This document shows, piece after piece, positions 25,586 through 44,005 of a DNA stretch of 64,000 nucleotides (position 1 is its first letter; every line of letters starts with the position of its first letter). The notes under the pieces were generated by a model. It had not been told where the DNA came from and ran no database searches. It saw nothing but the letters and a program-made list of their open reading frames with translations. A program made the translations under genes and the position numbers. This DNA comes from Actinomycetota bacterium (GTDB lineage: Bacteria; Actinomycetota; UBA4738; JBBDHU01), in contig JBBDIK010000013.1 of assembly GCA_040880465.1 (NCBI GenBank), forward strand, positions 9,339-73,338, read 5' to 3'.

Positions 25586-25821
25586 TGTTCCGCAGGCTCT
25601 TCTGGCTCTCGCTGGGCCTCGGTGCCGGTGCGACCTCTGCCGTCCTGGCCTCTCGCTGGCTCAAGCGCCAGACCCACAAGATGGCCCCCGCCTACGTGGC
25701 GAAGACGGCCTCGACCAGCCTCCTCGAACTCGGGAAGAAGGTCGCAGAGTCCGTCCAGGAGGGCCGTGCGGCCGCCGAGCAGCGCGAACGCGAGGTCCGG
25801 GAGAAGGCGAAGCTAGACTAG
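25585..25821 (+). CDS. small membrane protein, unknown function
   Basis: 78 aa. TM helix followed by a charged helix. ATGA-type overlap with the upstream gene. Coding status is inferred from position and coupling only. Confidence 0.45.
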   Translation: MFRRLFWLSLGLGAGATSAVLASRWLKRQTHKMAPAYVAKTASTSLLELGKKVAESVQEGRAAAEQREREVREKAKLD

Positions 25822-25826
25822 CCGCC

Positions 25827-30982: not shown

Positions 30983-31705
30983 GTGGAAACGGAACCCATG
31001 GATATCGATTTCTCTTCTCTCGCGTCCCGCATCGCGGCGGACGTCGGGGGCTTGCGAGGGTGCATCATCGCCTCGCGTGATGGACTCGTACTCGGCGCGT
31101 ACCCCGCCGACGGCGAGGCCGTCCTGCGCCCGGCCTGGCTGCGCTTCGCCGCGCTGGGTGACGTCGAGAAGGGATTCATCGAATTCGGTGGGGAGACATG
31201 GGTCTACGTTCAGCGCGGACCCTACGCCGCCTTCGCGGTGAGTGAAGTCGCCGCTCGTCCAGGCTTGATCCTCGAGGAGATGGAGCAGATCCTCCGCTCG
31301 GCCGAGGAGGCGCGGAGTCGGCAGCCCAGCGTCCGGATGGAGGGCGGCGATGCAGCCCGGAGTAAGCCGCGCACCACGCTGCATCCGGAAGCGCGGCCGT
31401 CCGCTCCGGCTCCGGCCTCGGGCGTTCCAGCTCAGGCTGCATCCGCCAGCCCCGCCCAGGAGGCAGCAGCCCCCGCGCCGCCGCCTACGGATACCCCGCA
31501 GGTCATCTCGACCGACGAGCCACAACCGGCCTCGGAGGTGCCGGCTCCGTCGAGCGACGCCCCGACGCCGTCGCAGGAGGTTGCTCCGGCCGCCTCGCCG
31601 CCGGCCCCACAACCGCAGGAGGGCGATGTGGACCGGGTCTTGCTCGCTCAGGAGTTCGCACAGTTGCTGGAGGACAGCGGCTACGATGACGAGGAGGACG
31701 AGTGA
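30983..31705 (+). CDS. Roadblock/LC7-like domain protein with Pro/Ala/Ser/Gln-rich linker and acidic C-terminal helix; first gene of the pilus ATPase operon
   Basis: N-terminal ~105 aa: VGGLRGCIIASRDGLVLGAYP...GFIEFGGETWVYVQRGPYAAFAVSEVAARPGLILEEM fits the Roadblock/LC7 (MglB-like) alpha-beta-alpha pattern. About 110 aa of low complexity follow. The protein ends VDRVLLAQEFAQLLEDSGYDDEEDE. The start codon is uncertain (GTG 30983 or ATG 30998). Confidence 0.5.
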   Translation: METEPMDIDFSSLASRIAADVGGLRGCIIASRDGLVLGAYPADGEAVLRPAWLRFAALGDVEKGFIEFGGETWVYVQRGPYAAFAVSEVAARPGLILEEMEQILRSAEEARSRQPSVRMEGGDAARSKPRTTLHPEARPSAPAPASGVPAQAASASPAQEAAAPAPPPTDTPQVISTDEPQPASEVPAPSSDAPTPSQEVAPAASPPAPQPQEGDVDRVLLAQEFAQLLEDSGYDDEEDE

Positions 31706-31715
31706 TCGGACCTAG

Positions 31716-33410
31716 ATGGCGGAGGTAAAGAAGGCCAAACAGCTCGGCGAGATCCTCGTCGACGACGGCTTGGTCACCCAGGAGCAACTCGACCACGCGC
31801 TCGAGGAGCACCGCCGTGTCGGCAAGCTCCTCGGACGGGTGCTGATCGACCTCGGCTACATCAAGGAGACCGACCTCGTTCGGGCGCTCGCCCAGCAAGT
31901 CGGGTTCGAGTTCGTCGATCTCAGCGAGTACCAGATCGAGCCCTGGGCGCCGGTGTTGCTGCCCGAGCAGGTCGCCCGCCGTTATCGCGCTCTCCCGATC
32001 GGCGAGCGCGACGGCAAACTCCTCGTGGCGATGTCCGACCCGGCGAACGTCTACGCCCTCGACGACATCCGCATCATCACGGGCCGCGACGTCCAGCCGG
32101 TCGTCGCGACGGCCGCGGACATCGAGCAAGCGCTCCGCCGATACGCCGGGCTCGACGCTCAGGCTGAGGAGCTGGCCGAAGAGGTCGCGGAAGCCGCGGA
32201 CGAGGGCAAGAAGAAGGGGGACGGCGAGGAGGACGAGGAGGAGGACGACGAGGCTCCGATCGTCAAGCTCGTGAACGCGATCATGACGCAGGCCGTCGGC
32301 GACCGAGCCTCCGACATCCACATCGAACCGACCGAGAAGGACGTGCGGGTCCGCTTCCGCGTCGACGGTGTCCTCCACGAGGTGAGTCGCGCCCAGAAGC
32401 GGATCCAGAACGGGCTGACCAGCCGCTTGAAGGTGATGGCGGAGATGGACATCGCGGAGAAGCGGATCCCCCAAGACGGGCGGATCGCGATGCGCGTCGC
32501 GGGCAAGATGCTCGACCTGCGCGTGGTCACCCTGCCGACCGTCTACGGCGAGAAGGTCGTGATGCGTGTCCTGGACAAGAGTTCGGCGCTCCTTCACCTC
32601 GAGGACCTAGGGTTCCTGGAGCACTCGTACAAGCGGTACGAGGAGGCCTACAGCAAGCCGTACGGTGCCATCCTGGTGACGGGTCCGACCGGCGCCGGCA
32701 AGTCGACCACGCTGTACGCCACGCTGAACGTGTTGAACTCCCCGGAACGCAACATCATCACCGTGGAGGATCCGGTCGAATACCGGCTCAAGGGCATCAA
32801 CCAGTGCCAGGTCCACAACGCAGCGGGGCTCACGTTCGCCCGGGCGCTGCGAGCGATCCTGCGCAACTCGCCCGACATCATCCTCGTAGGAGAGATCCGC
32901 GACCGCGAGACGGCCACGATCGCGACCGAGTCGGCGCTGACCGGCCACCTCGTCCTGTCGACGCTGCACACCAACGATGCCCCTTCGGCGATCCCCCGGC
33001 TCATCGAGATGGGGATCGAGACGTTCATCGTGGCATCGTCCATCGACTGCGTCGTCGCGCAGCGGCTGGCGCGCAAGCTCTGTGAGAAGTGCAAGGAGCC
33101 CTACGCGCCGGAGGCGGCCGAGCTGGTCGCGATCGGGTACAACGAGCAGGAGATCGCCGACATCGAACAGCTCTACCGCCCGGTTGGGTGCCCCGCGTGC
33201 TCCAAGACCGGCTACCGGGGCAGGATCGGTCTCTACGAGGTCATGCTCGTCAACGACGATATCGAGCGGCTCACGATCGAGCGGGCACCGGCCGACGAGA
33301 TCCGCAAGGCCGCGATCGCCGAAGGCATGGCGACCCTGCGTGACGACGGCCTCCAGAAGGTCCGGCTCGGGATGACGTCGATCGCCGACGTCCTCCGGGT
33401 GGTTGCCTGA
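31716..33410 (+). CDS. pilB: type IV pilus extension ATPase PilB, copy 1 (GspE/T2SSE family with T2SSE_N/MshEN-like N-domain)
   Basis: 564 aa. Walker A GPTGAGKST, Walker B DIILVGEIRD, tetracysteine CEKC...CPAC. The N-terminal domain carries two 24-aa LGxxLVxxGLV-type repeats. Confidence 0.9.
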   Translation: MAEVKKAKQLGEILVDDGLVTQEQLDHALEEHRRVGKLLGRVLIDLGYIKETDLVRALAQQVGFEFVDLSEYQIEPWAPVLLPEQVARRYRALPIGERDGKLLVAMSDPANVYALDDIRIITGRDVQPVVATAADIEQALRRYAGLDAQAEELAEEVAEAADEGKKKGDGEEDEEEDDEAPIVKLVNAIMTQAVGDRASDIHIEPTEKDVRVRFRVDGVLHEVSRAQKRIQNGLTSRLKVMAEMDIAEKRIPQDGRIAMRVAGKMLDLRVVTLPTVYGEKVVMRVLDKSSALLHLEDLGFLEHSYKRYEEAYSKPYGAILVTGPTGAGKSTTLYATLNVLNSPERNIITVEDPVEYRLKGINQCQVHNAAGLTFARALRAILRNSPDIILVGEIRDRETATIATESALTGHLVLSTLHTNDAPSAIPRLIEMGIETFIVASSIDCVVAQRLARKLCEKCKEPYAPEAAELVAIGYNEQEIADIEQLYRPVGCPACSKTGYRGRIGLYEVMLVNDDIERLTIERAPADEIRKAAIAEGMATLRDDGLQKVRLGMTSIADVLRVVA

Positions 33411-35098
33411 TGGCCCAGGTGCAGAACCGGTCGCGGCAACTCGGCGAGATCCTCATGGAGCGCGGGCTCCTGTCGCCCGAGCAGCTCCAGGCGGCCCTCG
33501 AGGAGCACCAGAAGGCGGGCAAGCTCCTCGGGCGGGTCCTCATCGACAAGGGGTACGTCAGCGAGGCCGACCTCGTCCGAGCGTTGGCCGAGCAAGTTGG
33601 GCTCGAGTTCGTCGACCTGACCGAGTTCCCCGTCGACGCGTCGTGCACGGCCCTGCTTCCCGAATCCGTCGCTCGCCGCTACCGGGCGATTCCCATCGCC
33701 GAGCGCGACGGCAAACTCCTCGTGGCGATGTCCGACCCGGCGAACGTCTACGCCTTGGACGACATCCGCATCATCACCGACCGCGACGTGCAACCCGTCG
33801 TGGCGACGGCCAGCGATGTCGAGGGGGCGATCCGGAAGTTCGCGGGGCTCGACGCGGCGGTCGAGGAACTGGCCGAGGAGATCGCCGAAGCCAAGGACGA
33901 CGAAGACCTCATGGCGGCGGAGGGCATCGCGGTCGAGGAGGCTCCGATCGTCAAGTTGGTCACGGCGATCATCAAGCAGGCGGTGTCGGAACGCGCATCG
34001 GACATCCATATCGAACCCACGGAGCGCGACGTACGCGTGCGATTCCGCGTGGACGGCGTCCTGCACGACGCGATGAAGTCGCCGAAGAGCATCCAGACGG
34101 GGCTCATCTCACGGCTGAAGGTCATGGCGGACCTGAACATCGCCGAGAATCGGCTGCCACAGGACGGGCGGATCAGCGTCAAGGTGAGCGGCAGGCAGTT
34201 CGACCTGCGGCTCGCGACCCTGCCGACCGTCTACGGCGAACGCATGATGATCCGGGTGCTCGACAAGAGCTCGGCACTGATGGAGCTGTCGGACCTGGGC
34301 CTGCTGGAGGACCCCTTCAAGCAGTTCGAGGTGTCCTTCCGTAAGCCGTACGGGGCGGTCCTGGTCACCGGGCCGACGGGCTCGGGGAAGACGACGACGA
34401 TGTACGCCACCCTGTCCTTGATCAACTCGCCCGAGAAGAACGTCATCACGGTCGAGGATCCCGTCGAGTACAAGCTCAAGGGGGTCAATCAGATCCAGGT
34501 GATGCCGAAGCAGGGGCTGACGTTCGCCGGGTCCCTGCGCGCCATCCTGCGTGCCGACCCGGACATCGTGCTGATCGGGGAGATCCGCGACCGCGAGACC
34601 GCCATCATCGGTATCGAGGCCGCACTCACCGGCCACCTCGTGCTGTCGTCCCTGCACACGAACGATGCCGCCTCCGCCGTCACCCGTCTGACCGAGATGG
34701 AGGTCGAAACGTTCCTGGTGGCTTCCGCGATCGAGTGCGTGGTGGCCCAGCGCCTCGCGCGCATCCTGTGCGATAAGTGCAAGGAGGCTTACCAGCCCGA
34801 TACCCCCGAATTGGCGGCTGCAGGCTATCCTGAGAGTGCGTGGTCCGAGATCGGGCAGCTCTTCCGCCCAACCGGCTGCAAGGCGTGTTCAAATACCGGG
34901 TACCGCGGACGGATCGGCCTCTACGAGGTCCTGACCGTCACGGAGGAGATCGAGCATCTGACGGTGGAACGGGTGCCGTCCGCGAGGATCGCCGACGTGG
35001 CGATCGAGCAAGGGATGATGACGTTGCGTGAGGACGGACTGGAGAAGGCTCGGCGGGGGATCACCTCCGTCCAGGAAGTGCTGAGGGTGGTGGTGTAG
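33410..35098 (+). CDS. pilB: type IV pilus extension ATPase PilB, copy 2 (tandem paralog)
   Basis: 562 aa, collinear with copy 1. Walker A GPTGSGKTT, DIVLIGEIRD, CDKC...CKAC. Its start ATG overlaps the copy 1 stop (TGATG). Confidence 0.9.
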   Translation: MAQVQNRSRQLGEILMERGLLSPEQLQAALEEHQKAGKLLGRVLIDKGYVSEADLVRALAEQVGLEFVDLTEFPVDASCTALLPESVARRYRAIPIAERDGKLLVAMSDPANVYALDDIRIITDRDVQPVVATASDVEGAIRKFAGLDAAVEELAEEIAEAKDDEDLMAAEGIAVEEAPIVKLVTAIIKQAVSERASDIHIEPTERDVRVRFRVDGVLHDAMKSPKSIQTGLISRLKVMADLNIAENRLPQDGRISVKVSGRQFDLRLATLPTVYGERMMIRVLDKSSALMELSDLGLLEDPFKQFEVSFRKPYGAVLVTGPTGSGKTTTMYATLSLINSPEKNVITVEDPVEYKLKGVNQIQVMPKQGLTFAGSLRAILRADPDIVLIGEIRDRETAIIGIEAALTGHLVLSSLHTNDAASAVTRLTEMEVETFLVASAIECVVAQRLARILCDKCKEAYQPDTPELAAAGYPESAWSEIGQLFRPTGCKACSNTGYRGRIGLYEVLTVTEEIEHLTVERVPSARIADVAIEQGMMTLREDGLEKARRGITSVQEVLRVVV

Positions 35099-36301
35099 GT
35101 GGCGACGACCGCTGCTGCGGACGAAGACGTACAGATCCCGATCCCCGAACTGCTCGAGGTGATGCTCTCGCGCGGAGCCTCGGATCTGCATATCACGGCC
35201 GGTGCGCCACCGACGATCCGGATGCACGGTGAGCTGGTCCGCCTGGAGGAATACCCGCTGCTCACCCCGCGGGGGTTGCAGGGCATGATCTACGCGATCC
35301 TGCCGCAACGGCACCGCGAACACCTCGAGCAGGACCTCGAGTTGGACATGTCCTACGCGCTGCCCGGGAAGGCCCGGTTCAGGGTCAACGTGTACTGGCA
35401 GCGTGACTCGCTCGGGTCGGCGTTCCGCCTCATCCCCTACGAGATCAAGTCGACGGACGAGTTGCGGCTCCCCGAGGTCGTCAAGGAGCTGGCCCGGTAC
35501 CCGCGTGGGTTCATCGTCGTGACGGGCCCGACAGGCTCAGGCAAGTCCACGTCCCTGGCGGCGATGATCGACCAGATCAACAACGAACTGCCCGTCCACA
35601 TCATGACCGTCGAGGATCCCATCGAGTTCCTGCACAAGCACAAGACCGCGATGATCAATCAGCGCGAGGTGGGGGCGGACACCCACGGGTTCGGTCCCGC
35701 CCTCAAGCACGTGCTCCGTCAGGACCCCGACGTCATCCTGGTCGGGGAGATGCGAGACCTCGAGACCGTCCAGACGGCGATCACCGCCGCCGAGACCGGT
35801 CACCTCGTCTTCGCCACCCTGCACACCCAGGACGCGCCGCAGACCATCGACCGGATCATCGACGTTTTCCCATCGCACTCGCAGCAGCAGATCCGGGTGC
35901 AGCTCTCGACCACCCTGCAGGGCGTCATGACCCAGCAGCTCCTTCAGACGCCGGACGGGCAAGGCCGGGTCGTCGCCTGTGAGGTCTTGATCGCGACGTC
36001 GGCGGTGCGCAACCTGATCCGGGAGGGGAAGGTGCACCAGATCTACTCGGTGATGCAGTCGGGTGGTCGGTTCGGGATGCAGACGATGGACCAGGCGTTG
36101 GCGGACCTGGTCAAGACGGGACAGATCACGCAACAGCTTGCCCTGGAACGCTGTCACGACCCCGAGGAGTTGACCCGCCTGATGAGCGGCGGTGTCTCTG
36201 CCGGGGCGGCGACCGGATTCGCACCGGGCGGGGAGTACGCGCAACAGGGTGCTCCCCAGCAGGCATACCCGCCCATGGGCGGCGGGATACCGCAGGGCTG
36301 A
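35099..36301 (+). CDS. pilT: twitching-motility retraction ATPase PilT (with Gly/Gln/Pro-rich C-terminal tail)
   Basis: ASDLHITAGAPPTIRMHG, GPTGSGKSTS, ILVGEMRDLETV, AETGHLVFATLHT (PilT AIRNLIRE-like SAVRNLIREGK). 400 aa, about 35 aa longer than usual at the C-terminus. Confidence 0.9.
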   Translation: MATTAAADEDVQIPIPELLEVMLSRGASDLHITAGAPPTIRMHGELVRLEEYPLLTPRGLQGMIYAILPQRHREHLEQDLELDMSYALPGKARFRVNVYWQRDSLGSAFRLIPYEIKSTDELRLPEVVKELARYPRGFIVVTGPTGSGKSTSLAAMIDQINNELPVHIMTVEDPIEFLHKHKTAMINQREVGADTHGFGPALKHVLRQDPDVILVGEMRDLETVQTAITAAETGHLVFATLHTQDAPQTIDRIIDVFPSHSQQQIRVQLSTTLQGVMTQQLLQTPDGQGRVVACEVLIATSAVRNLIREGKVHQIYSVMQSGGRFGMQTMDQALADLVKTGQITQQLALERCHDPEELTRLMSGGVSAGAATGFAPGGEYAQQGAPQQAYPPMGGGIPQG

Positions 36302-36316
36302 TGAGAGGAGGAGCCC

Positions 36317-37531
36317 GTGGCTGAGACATTCTTGTACAAGGCACGGGACCGCACGGGCAAGGTCGTCAGCGGCGAACTGATCGGCGACAGCGAGCAGCTC
36401 GTCATCGCCAAGCTGCGCGAACAGGCCCTCGTCCCCATCGAGGTATCGAAGAAGTCCGCCGGCATGAAGCGCGAACTCACGTTCCGGCCGGGGCGGGTCA
36501 AGCTCAAGCTGATGTCGGTGTTCTCGCGTCAGTTCGCCACCATGGTGAACTCCGGTCTCCCCATCCTGCGTGCGCTGGCGATCCTGGCGGAGCAGACCGA
36601 ATCGCAGGAACTCGCCAAGATCCTCACCCGCGTCCGGATGGACGTCGAGCAGGGAGCATCCCTGTCCGGCGCCATGGCCAAGCATCCCAAGGTCTTCGAC
36701 GACCTCTACGTGTCGATGGTCAAGGCCGGTGAGACCGGCGGTGTGCTCGACTCGGTCCTGCTGCGACTCGCCGACCAGATCGAGAAGGAGGTCTCGCTCC
36801 GGAACCGTATCAAGTCGGCGATGACCTACCCGGTCGTGGTGCTGCTGATGGTGCTGTTCATCCTTGCGGCGATGCTCCTCTTCATCGTCCCGCAGTTCGA
36901 GAAGATCTACGCGGACCTGGGCAGCCAGCTCCCGCTTCCGACGCGCGTCCTCCTGGGCGCTTCGAAGGCGCTCCGGGACTACTGGTACCTGTTCATCGGT
37001 GGATCGATCGGCGGCTGGTTCGCGCTCAAGCAGTGGAAGAAGACGGACTCCGGGCGCGAAGCGGTCGACCGATTCAAGCTTCGCGTGCCGGTCTTCGGCC
37101 CACTCTTCCGCAAGACGGCCCTGTCGCGGTTCTCCAGCACGCTGGGCGTGCTCCTGCGGTCCGGCGTACCGATCCTGCAGGCCCTGGATATCGTCGCCGA
37201 CACGGTCGGGAACCGGGTCGTGAGCAAGGCCGTTTCGGACGTACAGGTCAGTGTGCGCGAGGGCGAGAGCATCGCCAAACCGTTGTCCCAGCACGCGGTG
37301 TTCCCACCGATGGTCGTGCAGATGCTCGCGGTGGGCGAGGAGACGGGTGCGGTCGATACCATGCTCGAGAAGGTTGCGCAGTTCTACGATGAGGAGGTCA
37401 CCGCCGCGGTCGACTCCCTCACATCCCTGATCGAGCCGCTGATGATCGCCGTGATCGGCGGGGCCGTCGGCATGTCCGTCATCGCCCTCTACTTGCCGAT
37501 GTTCAACATCATCAACCTGATCAACGAGTAG
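36317..37531 (+). CDS. pilC: type IV pilus platform protein PilC (GspF family)
   Basis: 404 aa. Two T2SSF repeats and three TM segments. GGAGGAG SD upstream of the GTG at 36317. Confidence 0.9.
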   Translation: MAETFLYKARDRTGKVVSGELIGDSEQLVIAKLREQALVPIEVSKKSAGMKRELTFRPGRVKLKLMSVFSRQFATMVNSGLPILRALAILAEQTESQELAKILTRVRMDVEQGASLSGAMAKHPKVFDDLYVSMVKAGETGGVLDSVLLRLADQIEKEVSLRNRIKSAMTYPVVVLLMVLFILAAMLLFIVPQFEKIYADLGSQLPLPTRVLLGASKALRDYWYLFIGGSIGGWFALKQWKKTDSGREAVDRFKLRVPVFGPLFRKTALSRFSSTLGVLLRSGVPILQALDIVADTVGNRVVSKAVSDVQVSVREGESIAKPLSQHAVFPPMVVQMLAVGEETGAVDTMLEKVAQFYDEEVTAAVDSLTSLIEPLMIAVIGGAVGMSVIALYLPMFNIINLINE

Positions 37532-37668: not shown

Positions 37669-37751
37669 CAGCTATCGATCCGAGCGGCCGATGAAAGAAA
37701 CATGGGTTGGCTCCAGCGGGGAGCCGACATTGCAGCGAAAGGAGGCTCCTC

Positions 37752-38237
37752 ATGCTGGAGCGCCTTAAGGGGCGGCGCGCTGAGGAAGAGGGGTTCACCC
37801 TCATCGAGTTGATGGTGGTCGTTCTGATCATCGGTATCTTGATCGCCATCGCTCTCCCGACCTTCCTCGGTGCCCGCGAGCGGGCCAACGACAAGGCCGC
37901 GCAGTCCTCGGTCCGGAACGCCTTGGTAGCAGCCAAGACGATCTTCACCGACACCGACGACTACTCGCTGGTCACGGTGGCGACTTTGGATGCTACTGAG
38001 CCATCGTTGGACTATCTGGCGGTGTCGACCGACGACACGGAGATCAGTTTCGACGTTCGTGACACGGCGAGCCTGATCCCGGACGGCGCGATCGCGTTGG
38101 TCGCGTACTCGGCGTCAGGCCGCTGCTTCGGTCTGCTCAACGAGAGTGATACCGGTGACGTGTTCTCCAATGACCCGGCGGCTGCGGACTGCGATGCAGC
38201 GGACGTGAGCTACGGCGACTTGGACTGGATCGTCTAG
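37752..38237 (+). CDS. pilA: major type IV pilin (prepilin) PilA
   Basis: AAAGGAGG SD precedes the ATG at 37752. MLERLKGRRAEEEG|FTLIELMVVVLIIGILIAIALPTF has class III signal features: G-1, F+1, E+5. A C-terminal Cys pair (C..21 aa..C) gives a D-region-like loop. Confidence 0.85.
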   Translation: MLERLKGRRAEEEGFTLIELMVVVLIIGILIAIALPTFLGARERANDKAAQSSVRNALVAAKTIFTDTDDYSLVTVATLDATEPSLDYLAVSTDDTEISFDVRDTASLIPDGAIALVAYSASGRCFGLLNESDTGDVFSNDPAAADCDAADVSYGDLDWIV

Positions 38238-38395: not shown

Positions 38396-40360
38396 GTGCG
38401 TAGAATGGGGTTCGAGATGGATCGCGATCTGAACGTGCTCGTGCGTGTCGTCCGTCGCCTCCGCAGCGAGGACGACGGGTTCACGATCGTGGAGGTCATG
38501 GTGGCGTCCCTCATCCTGCTGATCGCCATCCTGTCGACCGCCTACACGGCGACCATCGGGTTCACGTACTCGGCCCGCGCGCGACAGAAGCAAGACGCGA
38601 CCGGCGTCGCCAACTCCGTGTTCGAGGATGTCCAAGGCTTCTCCGAAACCATCCTGATGGAGGGCCTCGATTCTGCCGACCTGGACGCCAACAACGCCGG
38701 GCTCGTGCCCTGCGCGGGTGATTCCACGACCTGGTGCCTGGGGACGTCGAGCGGCGAGCAGGTGCTCGAGTCGACGGCCACCGAAGCTTCCGTCCTGAAT
38801 CCGCATGAGAGCACCGTCGAAGTGGGTCCGACAACGTTCTACCGGACGGTCTTCATCACGAAGGTGGATGGTGGAACGGATCAGCTTCGGGTTACGATCG
38901 AGATCACTTGGGGCACTCTCGATCCGGACACCGGTGAGTGGGAGAACACCCTCGTCTTGGACAAGGTCCTCGAGACCACGACGAGCTGTCCGATCGAGAC
39001 GTTGCATCCGTTCGGGGGTCCGTGCGGAACCGTCGTCACGGGCGAGGCCAACATATCGGACGGGTCGATCACGGTCTCGCCGTACGGGTCGACGCTTACT
39101 CCACCTTCTACGGCGACTGCGGATATCGCGCCGTTCACGAACGTTGCCAATCTGCTGGTCGTCACCCCGCCGTCCGTGGGAATGGACCTGGCCGCCGAGC
39201 AGGCGGGATCGGTGAGTGGAAGCGTCGTCACGTCCGGGGGCTACAGGAGCTTGACGACGGTCTCAGGGCAGACGACGACGGTGACGGAGGACGTGTGCGG
39301 GACGATCAGCGCGGCCTCCGCCGCGAACGACACCGAGCAGGGAAGCGACCCCTTCTCGCAGGTGTCGCCGACCGACCAGACGGGGTGCATCGCTCCCGGC
39401 TACCTGACCACCTTCCTGACGTCACCGCCCTCAACGACCGTGTCGAGGCTGGTGCTGGAGAAGCGGACGGCGGACGCATCGGCGACGACCGTGAGTTCGG
39501 TCACGGCCGCCGGGTCGGAGCAGTGCCCCAGCGGTAGCAACTCGAGTGCGGCATGCGGGTACGGGACCGTCCGGCAGGCCGGTACCACATGGATCAACTC
39601 CCTGGCCTACGCCGGGTCTCTGTCTGCGGGCAACTGCGGCCTGGTCCAATCCGATGCACGGACCTCCGCGAGTTCGGTCCAGAGCCAGAAGGTCGGCGGC
39701 AAGGTGGTCACGACCATCACGCGCAATCTGCCGAACGTCACGATCGGGTGCCTTCCCCCGAACCTCACGTCGTTGGCAAACGGAACCGCCACGGTGCCGC
39801 CCGCCTGGAACGCCCCGAGCCCCGCCTTCACCTCAACGACCGGGCGCACGGTCCCCGGGGCGACCGCCGGGACGTACCAGGGCTACATGCTGCGGATGTA
39901 CGGCATGACCGAGACGACCATCATCGAAGCTGGTACGGGCGCGGCGAATCCCGTCTACTCCCGGTCCGGGTCCATCCGGCACTGGAACGGATCCGGCTAC
40001 ACGACGACGACGATCACCAACAACACGTGCAGCCCCTCGTGCACGATCAGCCCGGCGACGCTGACCCTGGGCTTCACCGGCTCGGCGGCTCAATCGAAAG
40101 CCACCATCACGGGCGGTACGGGATACCTGTGCGCGCGACTGACCCCGACGTCGTTCACGGTTCCGTCCCTGTCGACCTCGGCAAGCACCACGTCGTTCCC
40201 GGACCCGCTCACGGGCTTCAGCCTGACGGAGCGCATCTTGACCCGGACGAGCACCCAGACCTGTGACTCGAACGCTGGGGGGGGCTTTACGACCGCGCTG
40301 AACGTGACGGTGAGTCCGAGCCTCGGGACGGCGACGGCATCCGTGACCGCTGATGGATGA
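38396..40360 (+). CDS. very large minor pilin (PilV-like prepilin N-terminus plus a Ser/Thr/Cys-rich domain of about 600 aa)
   Basis: ...RRLRSEDDG|FTIVEVMVASLILLIAIL prepilin signal (G-1, F+1, E+5). 654 aa. The remainder is Thr/Ser-rich with many Cys. Exact start is uncertain (38396 or 38405). Confidence 0.7.
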   Translation: MRRMGFEMDRDLNVLVRVVRRLRSEDDGFTIVEVMVASLILLIAILSTAYTATIGFTYSARARQKQDATGVANSVFEDVQGFSETILMEGLDSADLDANNAGLVPCAGDSTTWCLGTSSGEQVLESTATEASVLNPHESTVEVGPTTFYRTVFITKVDGGTDQLRVTIEITWGTLDPDTGEWENTLVLDKVLETTTSCPIETLHPFGGPCGTVVTGEANISDGSITVSPYGSTLTPPSTATADIAPFTNVANLLVVTPPSVGMDLAAEQAGSVSGSVVTSGGYRSLTTVSGQTTTVTEDVCGTISAASAANDTEQGSDPFSQVSPTDQTGCIAPGYLTTFLTSPPSTTVSRLVLEKRTADASATTVSSVTAAGSEQCPSGSNSSAACGYGTVRQAGTTWINSLAYAGSLSAGNCGLVQSDARTSASSVQSQKVGGKVVTTITRNLPNVTIGCLPPNLTSLANGTATVPPAWNAPSPAFTSTTGRTVPGATAGTYQGYMLRMYGMTETTIIEAGTGAANPVYSRSGSIRHWNGSGYTTTTITNNTCSPSCTISPATLTLGFTGSAAQSKATITGGTGYLCARLTPTSFTVPSLSTSASTTSFPDPLTGFSLTERILTRTSTQTCDSNAGGGFTTALNVTVSPSLGTATASVTADG

Positions 40361-40973
40361 GCCGGCAGCCGTGAGGACCTCTTCCGCTCCGAACGGGAGA
40401 ACGGCCGAGGATGGTTTCACGCTGGTTGAGGTGATGGTCGCGTCGGCGGTCATGATGGTCGTGATCGGAATGGCCGTCACGCTGCTGTTCAGCATCCAGC
40501 GAGGGGTTGAGCGGCAGGTGGACCGGCAGCAATCCGTGGATCAGGCCCGCCTCGCCGTGGAGCAGATCGACCGTGAGTTGCGCTCGGCGTCATCGATGAG
40601 CGAACTGAACGGCGGCGAAGGCCTGGTCGCCTTCACACTGAGCAACCAGGACACCCGGGAGGTCTCGACGGGAACCTGCGTCGAGTGGCGGGTCAGCGGA
40701 GGTAACCTCGAGACCAGGATCTGGCCGTCCGACTTCGCGGTGGGGAGTTCGTATCCATGGAGGATCGTGGCGACGGACATCGTCAATCCGGCCGGTGACC
40801 CGATCTTCGACGTCGATACAGGAGCGCTCTACGAGGGCCGTCTCGTGCACGTGCATGTATTGGTCAACGCGAACAACGCCTCGGGAAGAGATGTGGAGCT
40901 GAACACCGATCTCGCGGGGCGCAATATCGTGGTCGGCGAGGTGGATCCATGTGCGGCCTCACAGCCGGCGTAG
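40353..40973 (+). CDS. minor pilin (PilW-like prepilin)
   Basis: ...GRTAEDG|FTLVEVMVASAVMMVVIGMAV prepilin signal. 206 aa. Overlaps the upstream gene by 8 nt. Confidence 0.75.
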   Translation: MDEPAAVRTSSAPNGRTAEDGFTLVEVMVASAVMMVVIGMAVTLLFSIQRGVERQVDRQQSVDQARLAVEQIDRELRSASSMSELNGGEGLVAFTLSNQDTREVSTGTCVEWRVSGGNLETRIWPSDFAVGSSYPWRIVATDIVNPAGDPIFDVDTGALYEGRLVHVHVLVNANNASGRDVELNTDLAGRNIVVGEVDPCAASQPA

Positions 40974-40993
40974 GGAGCCGAAGGAGTAGAGGG

Positions 40994-42727
40994 ATGATGA
41001 TGCGAGTGCGGCGCGATGAATCCGGCCTGGCGATGGTCGTGGTCCTGCTGGTGACGCTCGTGCTGGTTTCGCTCTCGCTGGTCGTCGTTCAACTCGCTTC
41101 GCATAGCACGACGTCGAGCAGTTACGACCAGCGTCGTCTCCAGGCCGTTCACGCGGCAGAGACCGGCATCAACGAATATCTGACGGTCCTGCCGACCACG
41201 TACGGTCCCGGGCTCTGCGCTGACGGCCTCTTGGATCCAGGACCCATCTCCACGTCGCCTCTCCTCGAATACACGTTGGACGTCGAGTTGCGCGACGGCG
41301 GCACGACCGTGGGTTGCGCCGGCTACGACGGCAGGACCGTCGACACGGCGATCATCACCTCCACGGCAACGGCCGGGACCGCGACGGCGAACTCGACCGC
41401 GGTCACCCGGGTGCTGCGGGAAGAGGTTACGCTCACGCCCATCGACGGCGACGAAATGAACCAGGTCATCTACGCGACTAACAGCGTCGACATCAGCGGC
41501 AACGTGGACATCAACGGGTCTGCGACGGAGAACGATGCGGATATCTACGTCGCCGGCGACTTCGCCGTCAACAACTACGCGAATGTCGAAGGGTCCGTGT
41601 ACGCGAAGGGAAACGTCTCGCTCGGCCCGGCGTGTTACGCCGGGAGCATCTACGCGGACGGCAACGTAGAGAGCAACGGTGGCTCCTACGTCAACTACAT
41701 CTGCAACGGGAATACGCAGAAGCCGGGCGCCGTGGTGTGGGATAACGGCTACACGTATACGGTGCCCGCCGACGAGGGTGGGATCTGGGCCCGGGGGAAC
41801 ATCACGCTGGGCAACAACGCGTACTCCTACGGGTGGTGCACGAGTCCAGGGGCGATCAGCGTCAACCACTGCTCGGGGTTCAACCCGACCAACACGAACG
41901 GGTTCCCCGCGAACTGCCCCAACCACCTGGCGCCCGGGCCGAACCAGGATCTCAACGCCTGCGGGATCAACCGGACGCCGCCACTGGTGGAGACGCTCCC
42001 CTTCCCGTCGCTTACGTACTCGGCCGCCGACTGGACGGCCGATGGCTACGCGGTCCACAACTACACCACCTGTGCTGCGGGGCAGTCGGCCCTCGTGGCC
42101 TACCTTACCGGCGTCAACCCCGTGCCCGCGTACGGCGGTACGCCTGCATGGACCGCCGCGGAGATGACCGGCAAGAACGTCCTCAGGATCACGAGTACGC
42201 CGACGACCCCGGTCTGTGCGGTGACATTGAGCGGCATCTCCGGCACACTGCCGAACGATCTCGCCGTGATCGTCGACGGGTCCTTCGAGACGGGGGACAG
42301 CGGGGGCGGCGTGCAGATCACCAACTCGGGGGCCGAGACGCACACGTTCTACGTGATCCGGCCGCCGAACGGAACGCCTGCGATAAACCCGACCCCTGGG
42401 TGGAACCCGCGCACGGGTGATGCCTCCACGGCGAACTGCGATGTGACGGCTTCGAGTGCCACGCAGAACGGATCCCTGGCTAAGAAGGACCAGAAATATA
42501 CGAGCAAGACCGACATGTCGACGATCAACTTCTTCTCGTACACCCCGTGCGCCATCTACGCGTTCAACCAGAACAAGTCCGGGAGCGGCCAGTACATCGC
42601 GGGCGACACGGTCTTCATCAAGAACTCGTTCACCCTCAACTTCAACAAGAGCGACGTGCCGGGGGTCGTGCCCATCGGCTACGAGGCCGCGCCCGTGTAC
42701 GTCCAGGAACTGCGGGCAACGCCTTAG
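40994..42727 (+). CDS. large PilX-like minor pilin / putative tip protein
   Basis: AAGGAG lies 7 nt before the ATG at 40994. MMMRVRRDESG|LAMVVVLLVTLVLVSLSL is PilX_N-like (no E+5). 577 aa, with a repeat-containing Asn/Gly/Tyr-rich domain. Confidence 0.6.
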   Translation: MMMRVRRDESGLAMVVVLLVTLVLVSLSLVVVQLASHSTTSSSYDQRRLQAVHAAETGINEYLTVLPTTYGPGLCADGLLDPGPISTSPLLEYTLDVELRDGGTTVGCAGYDGRTVDTAIITSTATAGTATANSTAVTRVLREEVTLTPIDGDEMNQVIYATNSVDISGNVDINGSATENDADIYVAGDFAVNNYANVEGSVYAKGNVSLGPACYAGSIYADGNVESNGGSYVNYICNGNTQKPGAVVWDNGYTYTVPADEGGIWARGNITLGNNAYSYGWCTSPGAISVNHCSGFNPTNTNGFPANCPNHLAPGPNQDLNACGINRTPPLVETLPFPSLTYSAADWTADGYAVHNYTTCAAGQSALVAYLTGVNPVPAYGGTPAWTAAEMTGKNVLRITSTPTTPVCAVTLSGISGTLPNDLAVIVDGSFETGDSGGGVQITNSGAETHTFYVIRPPNGTPAINPTPGWNPRTGDASTANCDVTASSATQNGSLAKKDQKYTSKTDMSTINFFSYTPCAIYAFNQNKSGSGQYIAGDTVFIKNSFTLNFNKSDVPGVVPIGYEAAPVYVQELRATP

Positions 42728-42769: not shown

Positions 42770-43549
42770 GTGCCCCTTGCCGTCGCGGTGGTGATCTGGT
42801 TCCTCTTCGGGCTCGTGTTCGGCTCCTTCGTCACGGTGCTCGTCTACCGGGTGCCACGGCACGAGTCCATCGCCAAGCCGGGTTCGCGGTGCCCAAGGTG
42901 TGGAACGCCGCTTCGGGTTATCGATAACGTCCCGGTCGTCTCGTACCTGATCCGCCGCGGCAGGTGCCATGCCTGTGGCGAGCGCATCTCCGCCCGGTAC
43001 CCCCTCACCGAGCTGGCAACCTCCGCCCTGTTCGTCCTGGCTGCCCTCGCGTTCCCCGAGGAGCCGTTCGTGGCCGGGGTCATCGCGATCTTCTTCGGCG
43101 TACTCCTGGCCCTGTCGCTGATCGACTTCGAACACCGGATCCTTCCGAACGCGATCACCTACCCGTCCCTGGTCATCTTCGCCATCGCCGTCGTCGCGGG
43201 GCAGCTCCTCGGGACGGGGATGTCCATCCTGGGGGCCGGCCTCGGCCTCCTTGGATACGCGGGGGCGCTGTTCCTCATCGCGTTCCTGTACCCCAAGGGG
43301 ATGGGGATGGGCGACGTGAAGCTCGTTGCCCTGATCGGGCTGGTTGCCGGGTCCCTGGGGGCCGCCGAGGTGGTCGTGGCCGCGGCAGCGGGCTTCTTCA
43401 GCGGGGGCATCGTGGGGCTTGGCGTGCTCCTGGTGCGGCGCCGGCGAGGCCAGACGATGCCGTTCGGGCCCTTCCTGGCCTTCGGGGCGGTCGTAGGGAT
43501 CCTCGTGGGGCCTCAGATCGCCTCCTGGTACCTGGGTCTGCTCGGGTAG
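42770..43549 (+). CDS. pilD: prepilin peptidase / N-methyltransferase PilD (A24 family)
   Basis: CPRCGTPL...RGRCHACGERI (DiS-P-DiS domain). Catalytic Asp contexts are LIDFEHRILPN and GMGDVKL. Eight predicted TM helices. Confidence 0.9.
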   Translation: MPLAVAVVIWFLFGLVFGSFVTVLVYRVPRHESIAKPGSRCPRCGTPLRVIDNVPVVSYLIRRGRCHACGERISARYPLTELATSALFVLAALAFPEEPFVAGVIAIFFGVLLALSLIDFEHRILPNAITYPSLVIFAIAVVAGQLLGTGMSILGAGLGLLGYAGALFLIAFLYPKGMGMGDVKLVALIGLVAGSLGAAEVVVAAAAGFFSGGIVGLGVLLVRRRRGQTMPFGPFLAFGAVVGILVGPQIASWYLGLLG

Positions 43550-43601
43550 CCCCTCAGCCGGACCTTGCAGCCCACATCCGCAGAAAGTCCTCAGGCACGC
43601 C

Positions 43602-43628
43602 GAAAACCCCTCCTGAGCGGGGGTTTTG
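43602..43628 (+). terminator. intrinsic terminator after pilD
   Basis: GAAAACCCC-tcctgagc-GGGGGTTTTGG. The stem is followed by, and partly includes, a T-run. Confidence 0.6.
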
Positions 43629-43656
43629 GCGCTCCCGGGTTTTGTAGCGGATGTGT

Positions 43657-43685
43657 TTGAAAACTCTTGTTGCTACTGTTACTTT
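43657..43685 (+). promoter_or_regulatory. candidate sigma-70-type promoter for the HTH-pilMNO operon
   Basis: TTGAAA, a 17-nt spacer, then TACTTT. It lies in the most AT-rich stretch of the window, about 100 nt upstream of the HTH gene. Confidence 0.35.
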
Positions 43686-43739
43686 CCGTGGCGCCTGACC
43701 TTCCTGATGCGGGATGAGGTTTTTGGTGTGAACAGTTGT

Positions 43740-43784
43740 CTCAGGTGCCACATGTTACGTGTAGACGCACGTATGGCACCTGAG
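43740..43784 (+). promoter_or_regulatory. 45-nt extended inverted repeat / hairpin abutting the SD of the HTH gene
   Basis: CTCAGGTGCCA-catgt-TACGTG-tagacg-CACGTA-TGGCACCTGAG. The outer arm is 11 bp and the inner arm 6 bp. The 3' arm runs into the GAGGAGG SD (43782-43788). Confidence 0.6.
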
Positions 43785-43789
43785 GAGGT

Positions 43790-44005
43790 GTGCGGCCCTT
43801 GAGCAAGAAGCGTGGTTTTTCGAGTGACCGGCTGCTGACGGTCGGGGAGGTCGCGAACGCGATGCGGGTCTCCAACATGACCGTGTACCGCCTGATCAAG
43901 GCGGGGCAGCTGGCCGCCATCCGGGTCGGCAAGAACTATCGGATCCGGGAGTCGGATGTGGACCGGTACCTATCGTCCCGGTCGGTCAAGGTGGAGGGGA
44001 CCTGA
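43790..44005 (+). CDS. excisionase-family (MerR-like, HTH_17-type) small DNA-binding protein, first gene of the pilMNO operon
   Basis: LLTVGEVANAMRVSNMTVYRLIKAGQLAAIRVGKNYRIRESDVDRYL is the canonical Xis-type wing-helix pattern. Its stop overlaps the pilM ATG (TGATG). The start may be GTG 43790 or TTG 43799. Confidence 0.75.
   Translation: MRPLSKKRGFSSDRLLTVGEVANAMRVSNMTVYRLIKAGQLAAIRVGKNYRIRESDVDRYLSSRSVKVEGT

What the first reader, a model, noticed from the sequence alone, without database searches (positions are those of the whole stretch)
31716..35098. Two full-length PilB extension ATPases in tandem, both apparently catalytically intact
Seen: ORFs of 564 and 562 aa are collinear over their whole length. 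Each has the N-terminal T2SSE_N-type domain, Walker A (GPTGAGKST / GPTGSGKTT), a Walker B/Asp box (GEIRD) and the tetracysteine zinc motif. The second starts on the stop of the first (TGATG). A single PilT follows.

Established: T4aP systems normally encode one PilB per locus. Extra PilB paralogs are usually at separate loci serving separate pili.

Inference: there are three possibilities. The two may form a heteromeric motor. They may serve different pilin substrates, for example the major pilin versus the giant minor pilins. Or one may be a specialised sensor subunit.
Basis: partly seen in the sequence, partly recalled or inferred. Interest (0 to 1): 0.6.

Follow-up and report, generated by a model that had tools for sequence, protein, structure and literature searches.

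The report
Conserved tandem pair of pilus-extension ATPases
An uncultured sediment actinobacterium carries two intact, adjacent copies of the motor protein that pushes out type IV pili, and a whole clade keeps this pair next to a single pilus machine, making it a natural case for asking whether such motors share the work or mix in one ring.

Summary
pilB1 (31716-33410) and pilB2 (33410-35098) are full-length and 67% identical, and they overlap by TGATG. Both keep every catalytic motif, the zinc tetracysteine and both MshEN-type c-di-GMP motifs.

It is not an assembly artefact. An independent assembly of a sediment metagenome crosses the junction at flat depth. Seven other loci, from seven different assemblies or samples, have the same pilB1-pilB2 arrangement.

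B1 and B2 form separate, well-supported clades. Both are under strong purifying selection (dN/dS 0.06-0.17). The much more abundant sister lineage, and Acidimicrobiia/Cellulomonas, have one pilB in the same synteny. So this is an old duplication, probably specific to one clade, and both copies have been kept.

The cluster has only one PilT, PilC, PilM, PilO and PilD, and one PilN candidate. The number of small pilin genes does not follow the number of PilBs.

I read it as a two-extension-motor type IV pilus. Its origin is independent of Acinetobacter PilB/TfpB, and it resembles PilT/PilU on the retraction side. The tools here cannot say whether the two form mixed hexamers or alternate as homohexamers. 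The "degenerate sensor" reading is disfavoured. PVC-phyla loci also carry two PilBs with one PilC, which lowers the novelty. Interest is moderate.

The parts
30983..31705 (+). Conserved gene 10 nt upstream of pilB1. It has an N-terminal Roadblock/LC7 (MglB-like) fold, a Pro/Ala-rich tail and an acidic C-terminus. It is probably the first gene of the same operon.
   Evidence: AF2 model has pLDDT 80 with an a-b-b-a-b-b-b-a topology. Foldseek top hits are Roadblock/MglB/LAMTOR, E 1e-5, TM 0.6-0.7. Pfam Robl_LC7 scores below threshold in 3 orthologs. An ortholog lies upstream of pilB in every related locus.
31716..33410 (+). pilB1, 564 aa. Type IVa pilus extension ATPase, the slower-evolving paralog with more fixed derived changes.
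   Evidence: TIGR02538 PilB scores 677.0 bits against a cut-off of 675.65. Best PDB matches are T. thermophilus PilF, M. xanthus PilB and Geobacter PilB. The B1 clade has 100% bootstrap.
31740..31898 (+). PilB1 N-terminal pair of 24-residue MshEN-type c-di-GMP motifs (residues 9-32 and 38-61).
   Evidence: NF053729 c-di-GMP_motif scores 68.4 bits against a cut-off of 38. The motifs are conserved in all B1, B2 and single-copy relatives.
32003..32057 (+). 55-nt stretch identical to 33700-33754 in pilB2. It encodes part of the invariant ERDGKLLVAMSDPANVYALDDIRIIT segment and is probably a short gene-conversion tract.
   Evidence: It is the longest exact match between the copies. Synonymous variants are shared by the two paralogs within a genome but differ between the window and its 95-96% relative L067.
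32457..32489 (+). PilB1 N2D motif EKRIPQDGRIA. R256 corresponds to Geobacter PilB R257. R269 and R284 correspond to the arginine fingers R271 and R286.
   Evidence: Residue roles are taken from PMC5424180.
32682..32708 (+). PilB1 Walker A, GPTGAGKST. Ala327 is a change derived in the B1 clade.
32760..32783 (+). PilB1 Asp box, TVEDPVEY. E355 corresponds to the Mg-coordinating E357 of Geobacter PilB.
32862..32903 (+). PilB1 RNSPD followed by the atypical Walker B and catalytic Glu (DIILVGEIRD, E393). The Ser replaces a nearly universal Asp and is the signature of the B1 clade.
32934..32981 (+). PilB1 His box, ALTGHLVLSTLHTNDA (T409, H411, H418).
33081..33224 (+). PilB1 tetracysteine zinc motif, CEKC ... 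GCPAC.
33408..33412 (+). TGATG, where the pilB1 stop overlaps the pilB2 start. This suggests translational coupling.
   Evidence: The same overlap occurs in 6 of 8 genomes; L068 has TAGTG and L070 has a 3-nt spacer.
33410..35098 (+). pilB2, 562 aa. Second full-length extension ATPase, closer to the ancestral state at diagnostic sites and faster evolving among orthologs.
   Evidence: TIGR02538 is the best family at 630.8 bits, below its cut-off of 675.65. PDB best match is PilF at 611 bits. The B2 clade has 99.7% bootstrap.
33437..33595 (+). PilB2 N-terminal pair of MshEN-type c-di-GMP motifs (residues 10-33 and 39-62).
   Evidence: NF053729 scores 72.2 bits against a cut-off of 38.
34370..34396 (+). 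PilB2 Walker A, GPTGSGKTT. Thr328 is a change derived in the B2 clade.
34448..34471 (+). PilB2 Asp box, TVEDPVEY.
34550..34591 (+). PilB2 RADPD followed by Walker B and catalytic Glu (DIVLIGEIRD, E391).
34622..34669 (+). PilB2 His box, ALTGHLVLSSLHTNDA.
34769..34912 (+). PilB2 tetracysteine zinc motif, CDKC ... GCKAC.
35099..36301 (+). pilT, the retraction ATPase. It is the only one in the window and its GTG start directly follows the pilB2 stop.
   Evidence: TIGR01420 scores 480.8 bits against a cut-off of 319.1.
36317..37531 (+). pilC, the platform protein. It is the only one in the window.
   Evidence: Pfam T2SSF x2. NCBIfam PilC and GspF models score below their cut-offs.
37707..38237 (+). 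Small pilin of 176 aa, the major-pilin candidate.
   Evidence: N_methyl, E 1.8e-7.
38396..40360 (+). Pilin-like protein of 654 aa with an N-terminal methylation motif.
   Evidence: N_methyl scores 19.2 bits, below its cut-off of 21.2.
40353..42727 (+). Minor pilin of 206 aa and a 592-aa protein with a sub-threshold PilX_N match.
   Evidence: PilX_N scores 24.2 bits, below its cut-off of 25.5.
42770..46258 (+). pilD prepilin peptidase, a small HTH_17 gene, pilM, a pilN candidate and pilO. Each is single copy.

Best explanation
pilB1 and pilB2 are the two products of an old tandem duplication, most likely specific to this clade, of the single PilB extension ATPase of a monoderm-type type IVa pilus cluster. 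Both proteins are working ATPases and both carry the c-di-GMP-binding N-terminus. They are made from one tightly packed operon: Roadblock-like gene, pilB1, pilB2, pilT, pilC. The stop/start overlap should couple their synthesis. Both serve the one PilC/PilM/(PilN)/PilO platform encoded downstream. The pair has been kept because the ancestral job was split between the copies. B1 fixed more changes early, around the nucleotide pocket (GPTGAGKS, RNSPD), and then evolved slowly. B2 stayed closer to the ancestor but has its own fixed changes (GKT, K280R, A377S). The mechanism I favour is two motors that take turns on the same platform, for example pilus initiation versus processive elongation, or different kinetic set-points. 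That is what was found for PilB/TfpB in Acinetobacter baylyi and for PilT/PilU in retraction. Shown here: the duplication is real, conserved and under purifying selection; all catalytic and ligand motifs are intact; the platform is single-copy. Inferred: co-expression, action on one machine, and the split of roles. Not resolved: whether the rings are pure or mixed.
For: The pair is real and conserved. The same pilB1-pilB2 order was found for 7 of 7 B2-type homologs looked up, in seven different assemblies or samples and in identical synteny. A Logan contig spans the junction with 0 mismatches at flat depth. B1 and B2 are separate clades with 100% and 99.7% bootstrap, and B1+B2+single-copy sisters have 100%. 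There is no concerted evolution overall: within-genome B1-B2 identity is 66-71%, orthologs are 77-95% (B1) and 71-96% (B2). Selection is purifying on both: dN/dS is 0.061 and 0.055 for window versus L067, and 0.09-0.17 for other ortholog pairs. Walker A, Asp box, Walker B with catalytic Glu, His box, three N2D arginines, R453/R451 and both CxxC pairs are intact in all 16 proteins. They map onto the functional residues of Geobacter PilB. The c-di-GMP motif model is passed by both. There is one each of PilT, PilC, PilM, PilO and PilD, plus one PilN candidate. The TGATG overlap is conserved in 6 of 8 genomes. Each copy has fixed derived sites: 11 in B1, 6 in B2, 1 ambiguous, polarised with 111 single-copy sisters and 8 outgroups. 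The precedent for two non-redundant extension motors on one pilus is PMC8213720 and PMC11656802.
Against: There are no expression, interaction or activity data. No RNA run holds the stretch. The fixed differences are few (18-27 of 557 columns) and mostly conservative. None lies in a residue with an assigned role. The c-di-GMP motifs do not differ between the copies. So nothing in the sequence says what the split of labour is. High identity, a shared operon and coupled translation fit co-assembly into mixed rings at least as well as alternating homohexamers. A second pilC elsewhere in the genome cannot be excluded, because only 64 kb was seen. The B1+B2 sister relation has only 67% NJ bootstrap, so an older duplication with loss in the sister lineage is not excluded.
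Confidence: 0.45

Rival explanations
1. Heterohexameric motor. B1 and B2 co-assemble into one mixed ring, for example B1(3)B2(3), and this ring is the functional extension ATPase. Each copy is retained because the ring needs both.
For: The copies are 67% identical over the whole length, and all inter-subunit nucleotide-sensing residues are identical. The stop/start overlap is conserved in 6 of 8 genomes, so both chains are made together from one mRNA. Both copies were retained and intact in all 8 loci analysed in full. A short gene-conversion tract shows the copies still exchange sequence. In theory, duplicates of a homohexamer form heterohexamers by default until their interfaces diverge (PMC6711533). 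The 2024 review lists PilB hetero-oligomers as an open possibility.
Against: No heteromeric PilT/PilB-family ring has been demonstrated. The adjacent paralogs PilT and PilU were shown to be homohexamers (PMC6821130, title). Neither copy has lost any catalytic element, whereas many heteromeric ring ATPases have a degenerate partner. pilB2 and pilT are packed just as tightly, so the overlap is not specific evidence.
Confidence: 0.28
2. Two cargoes or two filaments through one platform. Each PilB drives assembly of a different pilin set (small major pilin versus the large pilin-like proteins) or a different output such as adhesion pilus, DNA uptake or secretion.
For: The cluster encodes several pilin-like proteins of very different size: 176, 654, 206 and 592 aa. 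One machinery can make two filament types in Thermus (PMC7203116, listed). PilB paralogs elsewhere serve different filaments (Saccharibacteria; V. cholerae MshE/PilB).
Against: In the known cases each PilB comes with its own PilC/PilM set, or sits at its own locus. Here there is one platform. The number of small pilin genes does not track the number of PilBs: tandem lineage 1-2, single-copy lineage 1-2. Large pilin-like genes also occur in single-copy clusters.
Confidence: 0.15
3. Redundant duplicate kept for dosage, or one copy is a degenerate regulator or sensor.
For: The copies differ little at functional sites. Both have the c-di-GMP sensor motifs.
Against: Redundant copies are not expected to persist over the divergence seen here, where orthologs are down to 71-77% identical, with dN/dS of 0.06-0.17 in both and clade-specific fixed residues in both. 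No catalytic residue is lost in any of 16 sequences. The only possibly broken copy seen is B2 of L082, a short metagenome contig, which may be an assembly error.
Confidence: 0.07
4. Assembly artefact: a falsely expanded repeat.
For: None was found.
Against: The copies are only 71% identical in DNA, and the longest exact match is 55 nt. Independent Logan contigs of a sediment metagenome tile 31000-36500 without mismatch. One contig (32755-33729) crosses the junction, and depth is flat at about 13-16. Seven other loci from different assemblies or samples have the same arrangement.
Confidence: 0.01

Closest known systems
Type IVa pilus extension ATPase PilB/PilF (Thermus thermophilus PilF, Myxococcus xanthus PilB, Geobacter metallireducens PilB)
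   Same: Same domain order: MshEN-type N-terminus, GSPII domain, N2D, CTD. All catalytic residues and the zinc tetracysteine are the same. These are the best PDB matches, at 520-613 bits. The neighbouring genes pilT, pilC, pilins, pilD and pilMNO are the same.
   Different: These organisms have one PilB per machine. Here there are two paralogs in tandem. B1 carries RNSPD where almost all relatives have RxDPD.
Acinetobacter baylyi PilB + TfpB (two extension motors for one pilus; PMC8213720)
   Same: Two catalytically competent PilB-family ATPases and one T4P machine. In A. baylyi the two roles are non-redundant and neither motor complements the other. This is the functional model adopted here.
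   Different: TfpB is as far from PilB as GspE or MshE is. Here the copies are 67% identical, adjacent and overlapping, and come from a recent duplication in one clade. Neither reaches the TfpB model cut-off: 472 and 462 bits against 850. No CpiA-like inhibitor was looked for.
PilT/PilU retraction ATPase pairs
   Same: Paralogous hexameric motors that serve one machine. One of them depends on the other.
   Different: These act on retraction, not extension. From my own knowledge, PilT and PilU are more diverged, at about 40% identity. They were shown to be homohexamers (PMC6821130).
PilB1/PilB2 of Saccharibacteria (and V. cholerae MshE/PilB); Haloferax PilB-PilC paralog pairs
   Same: More than one PilB-family extension ATPase in one genome.
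   Different: In Saccharibacteria each PilB sits at its own locus with its own PilC/PilM/PilN/PilO and makes its own filament. In Haloferax the paralogs are named as PilB-PilC pairs. Here there is one locus and one platform.
pilB-pilT-pilB-pilC loci of Kiritimatiellia, Verrucomicrobiota and Planctomycetota, and pilB-pilB loci L010 and L021
   Same: Two full-length PilBs. One PilC was detected in most of these loci (none in L026). In the PVC phyla the a and b copies are each orthologous across phyla, so that pair is also old and conserved.
   Different: These are independent, much older duplications, with copies 42-49% identical. In the PVC loci pilT separates the copies. They belong to diderm lineages.

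Membership tests
Type IVa pilus extension ATPase PilB (PilT/VirB11-like secretion ATPase, PilB/GspE clade) | ATPase core with Walker A, Asp box, atypical Walker B followed by the catalytic Glu, His box, and arginine fingers in N2D | tested here: met
   All are present in B1 and B2 and in all 16 paralogs of 8 genomes. They were mapped residue by residue onto Geobacter PilB T327, E357, E395, E400, T411, H413, H420, R257, R271, R286 and R455.
Type IVa pilus extension ATPase PilB (PilT/VirB11-like secretion ATPase, PilB/GspE clade) | [quoted passage not shown] | tested here: met
   B1 has CEKC...GCPAC and B2 has CDKC...GCKAC. The motif is conserved in all relatives.
Type IVa pilus extension ATPase PilB (PilT/VirB11-like secretion ATPase, PilB/GspE clade) | Curated equivalog score, NCBIfam TIGR02538, cut-off 675.65 bits | tested here: inconclusive
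   B1 scores 677.0 and just passes. B2 scores 630.8 and is below the cut-off, although this is its best-scoring family. B1 also just passes the GspE model (630.6 against 630.25), so scores alone do not separate PilB from GspE.
Type IVa pilus extension ATPase PilB (PilT/VirB11-like secretion ATPase, PilB/GspE clade) | Encoded with the T4P platform and filament genes (pilC, pilM/N/O, pilD, pilins, pilT) rather than T2SS genes | tested here: met
   No secretin or GspC/L/M-type gene was identified among the cluster genes scanned.
Type IVa pilus extension ATPase PilB (PilT/VirB11-like secretion ATPase, PilB/GspE clade) | ATP hydrolysis and requirement for pilus extension | not testable with these tools
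   This needs purified protein and genetics. The organism is uncultured (sediment metagenome).
MshEN-type c-di-GMP receptors | Two 24-residue motifs joined by a 5-residue spacer at the N-terminus | tested here: met
NF053729 scores 68.4 (B1) and 72.2 (B2) bits against a cut-off of 38. Position 1 of motif I is Q rather than R in all members of this lineage.
MshEN-type c-di-GMP receptors | Measured c-di-GMP binding | not testable with these tools
   Needs ITC or DRaCALA on the two N-terminal domains.
TfpB (second extension motor of Acinetobacter) | Membership of the TfpB clade, NCBIfam NF053534, cut-off 850 bits | tested here: not met
   Scores are 471.8 (B1) and 461.6 (B2) bits. Both group with actinobacterial PilBs.
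GspE (type II secretion ATPase) | Equivalog score TIGR02533 (cut-off 630.25) together with a T2SS gene context | tested here: not met
   B1 scores 630.6, which is marginal. B2 scores 594.8, below the cut-off. The context is a pilus cluster with PilT and PilM/O, and the nearest relatives are Actinomycetota.
Heteromeric ring ATPase | Physical co-assembly of the two paralogs in one ring | not testable with these tools
   No multimer prediction or biochemistry is available. There are only indirect hints: the overlap, the high identity and the joint retention.

The most novel reading that the evidence does not exclude
PilB1 and PilB2 form an obligate mixed hexamer. This would be the first heteromeric motor in the PilT/VirB11-like secretion ATPase family, and the duplication was fixed because the two subunit types take different positions or states in the C2-symmetric catalytic cycle.
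Probability: 0.25. Interest if true: 0.75.

Novelty: new variant of a known kind. Interest (0 to 1): 0.42.

Why it matters
Pilus extension was long thought to need a single PilB. Acinetobacter PilB/TfpB showed that two motors can share the job. The 2024 review asks whether such motors act as separate hexamers or as hetero-oligomers (PMC11656802).

This pair is a cleaner natural experiment than PilB/TfpB for three reasons:
- The duplication is young enough (67% identity) that only about 20 fixed differences separate the copies.
- It is conserved across a clade, and a sister clade has the unduplicated state in the same synteny.
- The genes are coupled in one operon with a single platform.

Co-expression in E. 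coli could answer the hetero- versus homohexamer question directly. Swapping the few diagnostic residues could show what was partitioned. The finding also shows that loci with two PilBs have arisen several times (Actinomycetota, PVC phyla and others). The "one extension motor" picture may therefore be incomplete.

Tried and rejected
- An exact look-up of the window's PilB1 found nothing.
- The genome-contig scan with a single protein used window-specific peptides such as EEDEEEDD. It returned only relatives at 60% identity or less, so the source genus was not identified.
- The listing of cluster members gave no taxonomy finer than "Actinomycetota bacterium".
- dN/dS between the paralogs themselves (0.15-0.31) is not interpretable, because dS of 0.8-1.6 is saturated or biased in this 68% GC genome. 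I used ortholog pairs instead.
- The first bootstrap run gave meaningless supports because the replicates were not rooted alike. I redid it with split counting.
- Motif regexes were too strict, so I replaced them with alignment columns.
- Rfam found nothing in the window.
- The promoter and terminator scan was at chance level.
- No RNA runs hold the stretch.
- A concatenated or multimer model of B1+B2 is not possible with the tool's input rule.
- I considered a mirror-tree or rate-covariation test for B1-B2 co-evolution and dropped it. Eight genomes that share one species tree give no power.
- Literature searches for tandem, adjacent or duplicated pilB found no description of this actinobacterial pair or of the PVC arrangement.
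- The Geobacter PilB structure paper does not mention the residue equivalent to B1 Ser385, which is Geobacter D387.

Full report
**1. The observation**

- They align over their whole length with 377/565 identities (67%), 82% positives and 6 gap positions.
- The TGA stop of the first (33408-33410) and the ATG of the second (33410-33412) share one base, giving TGATG.
- Both match Pfam T2SSE over the full model, plus the MshEN/T2SSE_N domain.
- NCBIfam ranks the PilB equivalog TIGR02538 first for both. B1 scores 677.0 bits and just passes the cut-off of 675.65. B2 scores 630.8 and falls below it.
- Both pass the MshE-related c-di-GMP motif model: 68.4 and 72.2 bits against a cut-off of 38.
- The best solved relatives are Thermus PilF, Myxococcus PilB and Geobacter PilB.
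- A PilT (35099-36301) starts on the base after the pilB2 stop, and a PilC (36317-37531) follows.
- tblastn finds no other PilB, PilT or PilC in the 64 kb.

**2. Catalytic integrity**

I mapped the functional residues defined for Geobacter metallireducens PilB (PMC5424180) through the printed alignment, in which the chain index equals the residue number plus 20.

| Geobacter PilB residue | Role | B1 | B2 |
|---|---|---|---|
| T327 | Walker A Thr | T325 | T323 |
| E357 | Asp box, binds Mg | E355 | E353 |
| E395 | catalytic Glu | E393 | E391 |
| E400 | pore residue | E398 | E396 |
| T411/H413/H420 | His box | T409/H411/H418 | equivalents present |
| R455 | inter-unit contact | R453 | R451 |
| R257/R271/R286 | N2D arginines | R256/R269/R284 | R254/R267/R282 |

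- Both CxxC pairs of the zinc motif are present.
- The same holds for all 16 B1/B2 proteins of eight genomes.
- The refutation route "one copy lost key residues" therefore fails.

**3. Not an artefact**

- The two genes are only 71% identical in DNA, and the longest exact match is 55 nt.
- A sediment-metagenome run holds 96% of the sampled words of the junction region.
- Its Logan contigs tile 31000-36500 with no mismatch. One contig (32755-33729) crosses the junction, and depth is flat at about 13-16 over both genes.
- The arrangement recurs in independent assemblies, as described in section 4.

**4. Distribution and age**

The genome-collection scan found only relatives at 60% identity or less. 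Acidimicrobiia and Cellulomonas are the nearest named taxa, and each has a single pilB-pilT-pilC.

The protein search with PilB2 found closer, unnamed Actinomycetota.
- Seven B2-type proteins were traced to contigs: P0001, P0003, P0009, P0013, P0022, P0007 and P0004.
- All seven have a B1-type gene immediately upstream.
- The synteny is the same throughout: aspS ... alaS-ruvX-mltG-aroE-(Roadblock-like gene)-pilB1-pilB2-pilT-pilC-pilins.
- Three proteins about equally distant from B1 and B2 (P0021, P0012, P0047) come from loci with the same synteny and a single pilB.
- In a metagenome scan seeded with a B1 alignment, 78 of the 80 best loci had one pilB. The two tandem loci were L081, which is the same contig as L078, and L082.
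- The tandem state therefore marks a minority clade. Its sister clade is very abundant in the metagenome contigs sampled and has the single-copy state.

Phylogeny and rates:
- In a neighbour-joining tree with 300 bootstraps, B1 (100%), B2 (99.7%) and the single-copy sisters (99%) are each monophyletic.
- The three together have 100% support. B1+B2 as sisters has 67%.
- Within-genome B1-B2 identity is 66-71% in every genome. Orthologs are 77-95% (B1) and 71-96% (B2) identical.
- So the copies have evolved independently since a duplication at or near the base of the clade.
- dN/dS between the window and its 95-96% relative is 0.061 for B1 and 0.055 for B2. Other ortholog pairs give 0.09-0.17.

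**5. How the copies differ**

- Of 557 ungapped columns, 343 are invariant among the eight B1 and 305 among the eight B2.
- With a larger sample (9 B1, 12 B2, 111 single-copy sisters, 8 outgroups), 18 columns are fixed differently in the two clades.
  - In 11 columns B1 is derived: E75, L140, D245, V271, A327, L333, N368, N384, S385, V391, D558.
  - In 6 columns B2 is derived: V50, I188, R278, T328, V345, S375.
  - One column is ambiguous.
- Each copy has one conservative derived change in Walker A. The ancestor had GPTGSGKST, B1 has GPTGAGKST and B2 has GPTGSGKTT.
- The most unusual change is B1's RNSPD just before the Walker B strand.
  - 105 of 118 PilB/PilT-type ATPases in the fetched loci have Asp at that position.
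  - NS occurs only in the B1 clade.
  - The Geobacter PilB structure paper assigns no role to this residue.
- The c-di-GMP motifs do not differ systematically between the copies.
- Identity by domain, within the same genome:

| Domain | B1-B2 identity |
|---|---|
| c-di-GMP motif region | 70% |
| GSPII domain | 76% |
| linker | 36% |
| N2D | 73% |
| CTD | 68% |

- One local exception to independent evolution is a 55-nt identical tract (32003-32057 and 33700-33754) in the invariant ERDGKLLVAMSDPANVYALDDIRIIT segment.
  - It carries synonymous variants shared by both paralogs within a genome (window AAA CTC CTC; L067 AAG CTG CTG).
  - This points to short gene-conversion events.

**6. Context**

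- The pilus cluster runs from 30983 to about 46258 and sits inside the aro operon: aroE upstream; aroC, aroB and aroQ, then efp, downstream.
- It has one PilT, one PilC, one small pilin, a 654-aa pilin-like protein and a 206-aa pilin. A 592-aa protein gives a sub-threshold PilX_N match (24.2 bits against a cut-off of 25.5).
- It also has PilD, a small HTH gene, PilM, a PilN candidate and PilO. No secretin was identified among the cluster genes scanned.
- Small pilin genes number one or two in both the tandem and the single-copy lineages. Pilin count therefore does not follow PilB count.
- Gene spacing is tight: 10 nt, a 1-nt overlap, 0 nt, then 15 nt. No terminator-like site lies on the + strand between the genes. 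This fits one operon.

**7. Interpretation**

- Both copies are very probably active extension ATPase subunits. They are made together and act on one platform.
- Joint retention under purifying selection, with fixed derived residues in both, argues for a split of the ancestral role. It argues against redundancy or decay.
- The best experimental precedent is Acinetobacter baylyi (PMC8213720; review).
  - PilB and TfpB are both needed for normal piliation.
  - Neither complements the other.
  - The authors proposed initiation versus processive extension.
- On that precedent, and on the demonstration that the PilT and PilU paralogs are homohexamers (PMC6821130), I favour two motors alternating on one platform (0.45).
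- The main rival is a mixed hexamer (0.28).
  - Duplicates of a homohexamer co-assemble by default until their interfaces diverge (PMC6711533).
  - These copies are 67% identical and translationally coupled.
  - The available tools cannot model or test ring composition.
- Separate cargoes through one platform (0.15) and redundancy or a degenerate regulator (0.07) are less likely.
- An assembly artefact is excluded.

**8. Comparison and novelty**

- Both proteins meet the structural definition of PilB.
- Neither is a TfpB: 472 and 462 bits against a cut-off of 850.
- Loci with two PilBs are not unique to this clade.
  - Kiritimatiellia, Verrucomicrobiota and Planctomycetota loci have pilB-pilT-pilB-pilC. 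The copies are 42-45% identical, and each copy is orthologous across those phyla.
  - L010 and L021 have pilB-pilB.
  - I found no paper describing any of these arrangements.
- This is therefore a new, independently evolved variant of a known kind, the type IV pilus with two extension motors.
- It is of moderate interest, mainly as a tractable system for the open question of hetero- versus homohexamers.

Noticed in passing
window 30983-31705 (+): The gene 10 nt upstream of pilB1 has no Pfam hit above threshold, but its first ~115 aa fold as a Roadblock/LC7 (MglB-like) domain. A Pro/Ala/Ser-rich tail and an acidic end (DDEEDE) follow. An ortholog precedes pilB in every tandem and single-copy relative. 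No MglA-like GTPase lies beside it. It may regulate or localise the PilB motor(s).
   Followed up: partly
window 32003-32057 and 33700-33754: A 55-nt exact repeat between pilB1 and pilB2 lies in an invariant peptide segment. Synonymous variants are shared by both paralogs within a genome but differ between the window and its 95-96% relative L067. L077 shows the same pattern. This suggests short gene-conversion tracts in otherwise independently evolving copies.
   Followed up: partly
L068 11708-14056; L077 11720-14107: Two members of the tandem-pilB clade also carry two tandem pilT genes, about 76% identical to each other, after pilB1-pilB2. Motor duplication is therefore recurrent in this lineage. 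The window has one pilT.
   Followed up: partly
L011, L015, L016, L018, L023, L026, L028: Kiritimatiellia, Verrucomicrobiota and Planctomycetota loci share the order pilB-pilT-pilB-pilC. The two PilBs are 42-45% identical. Copy a is closer to copy a, and b to b, across phyla (about 50% against 43%). This indicates an old, conserved pair of PilBs that I could not find described in the literature.
   Followed up: partly
L021 about 11135 (second PilB of a pilB-pilB-pilC locus): The downstream PilB of this unrelated tandem locus has RQSPD. This is the same Asp-to-Ser change, at the same position, as the B1-clade signature RNSPD. It may be convergent.
   Followed up: no
window 29996-50045: The whole pilus cluster is inserted inside the conserved aromatic amino-acid operon: aroE upstream; aroC, aroB and aroQ, then efp, downstream. 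The same placement is seen in all related Actinomycetota loci.
   Followed up: partly
L073 13453-15129 (-); L074 13440-14762 (-): Two of the three single-copy-lineage pilus clusters examined (L073, L074) contain a PMT-family (protein O-mannosyltransferase-like) gene on the opposite strand between the pilin genes. None was seen in the tandem-lineage clusters or in the window. This may reflect a difference in pilin glycosylation between the lineages.
   Followed up: no
window 38396-40360 and 40949-42727: There are very large pilin-like proteins: 654 aa with a borderline N-terminal methylation motif, and 592 aa with a sub-threshold PilX_N match. Relatives have 620-1151 aa versions (L078: 1151 aa). 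Their globular parts have no Pfam match.
   Followed up: no
L082 1602-3249: In this 3.5-kb metagenome contig the B2 copy is split between two reading frames. This is either a frameshift pseudogene or an assembly error. It is the only possibly broken copy seen.
   Followed up: no
window 25416-28454: The mechanical alaS ORF (1012 aa, GTG start) is about 135 residues longer than in relatives (868-880 aa), and the synthetase domain starts at residue 142. The true start is probably near 25820. The 5' part then overlaps the two small genes seen upstream of alaS in relatives (a DUF948 gene and a ~78-aa ORF).
   Followed up: no
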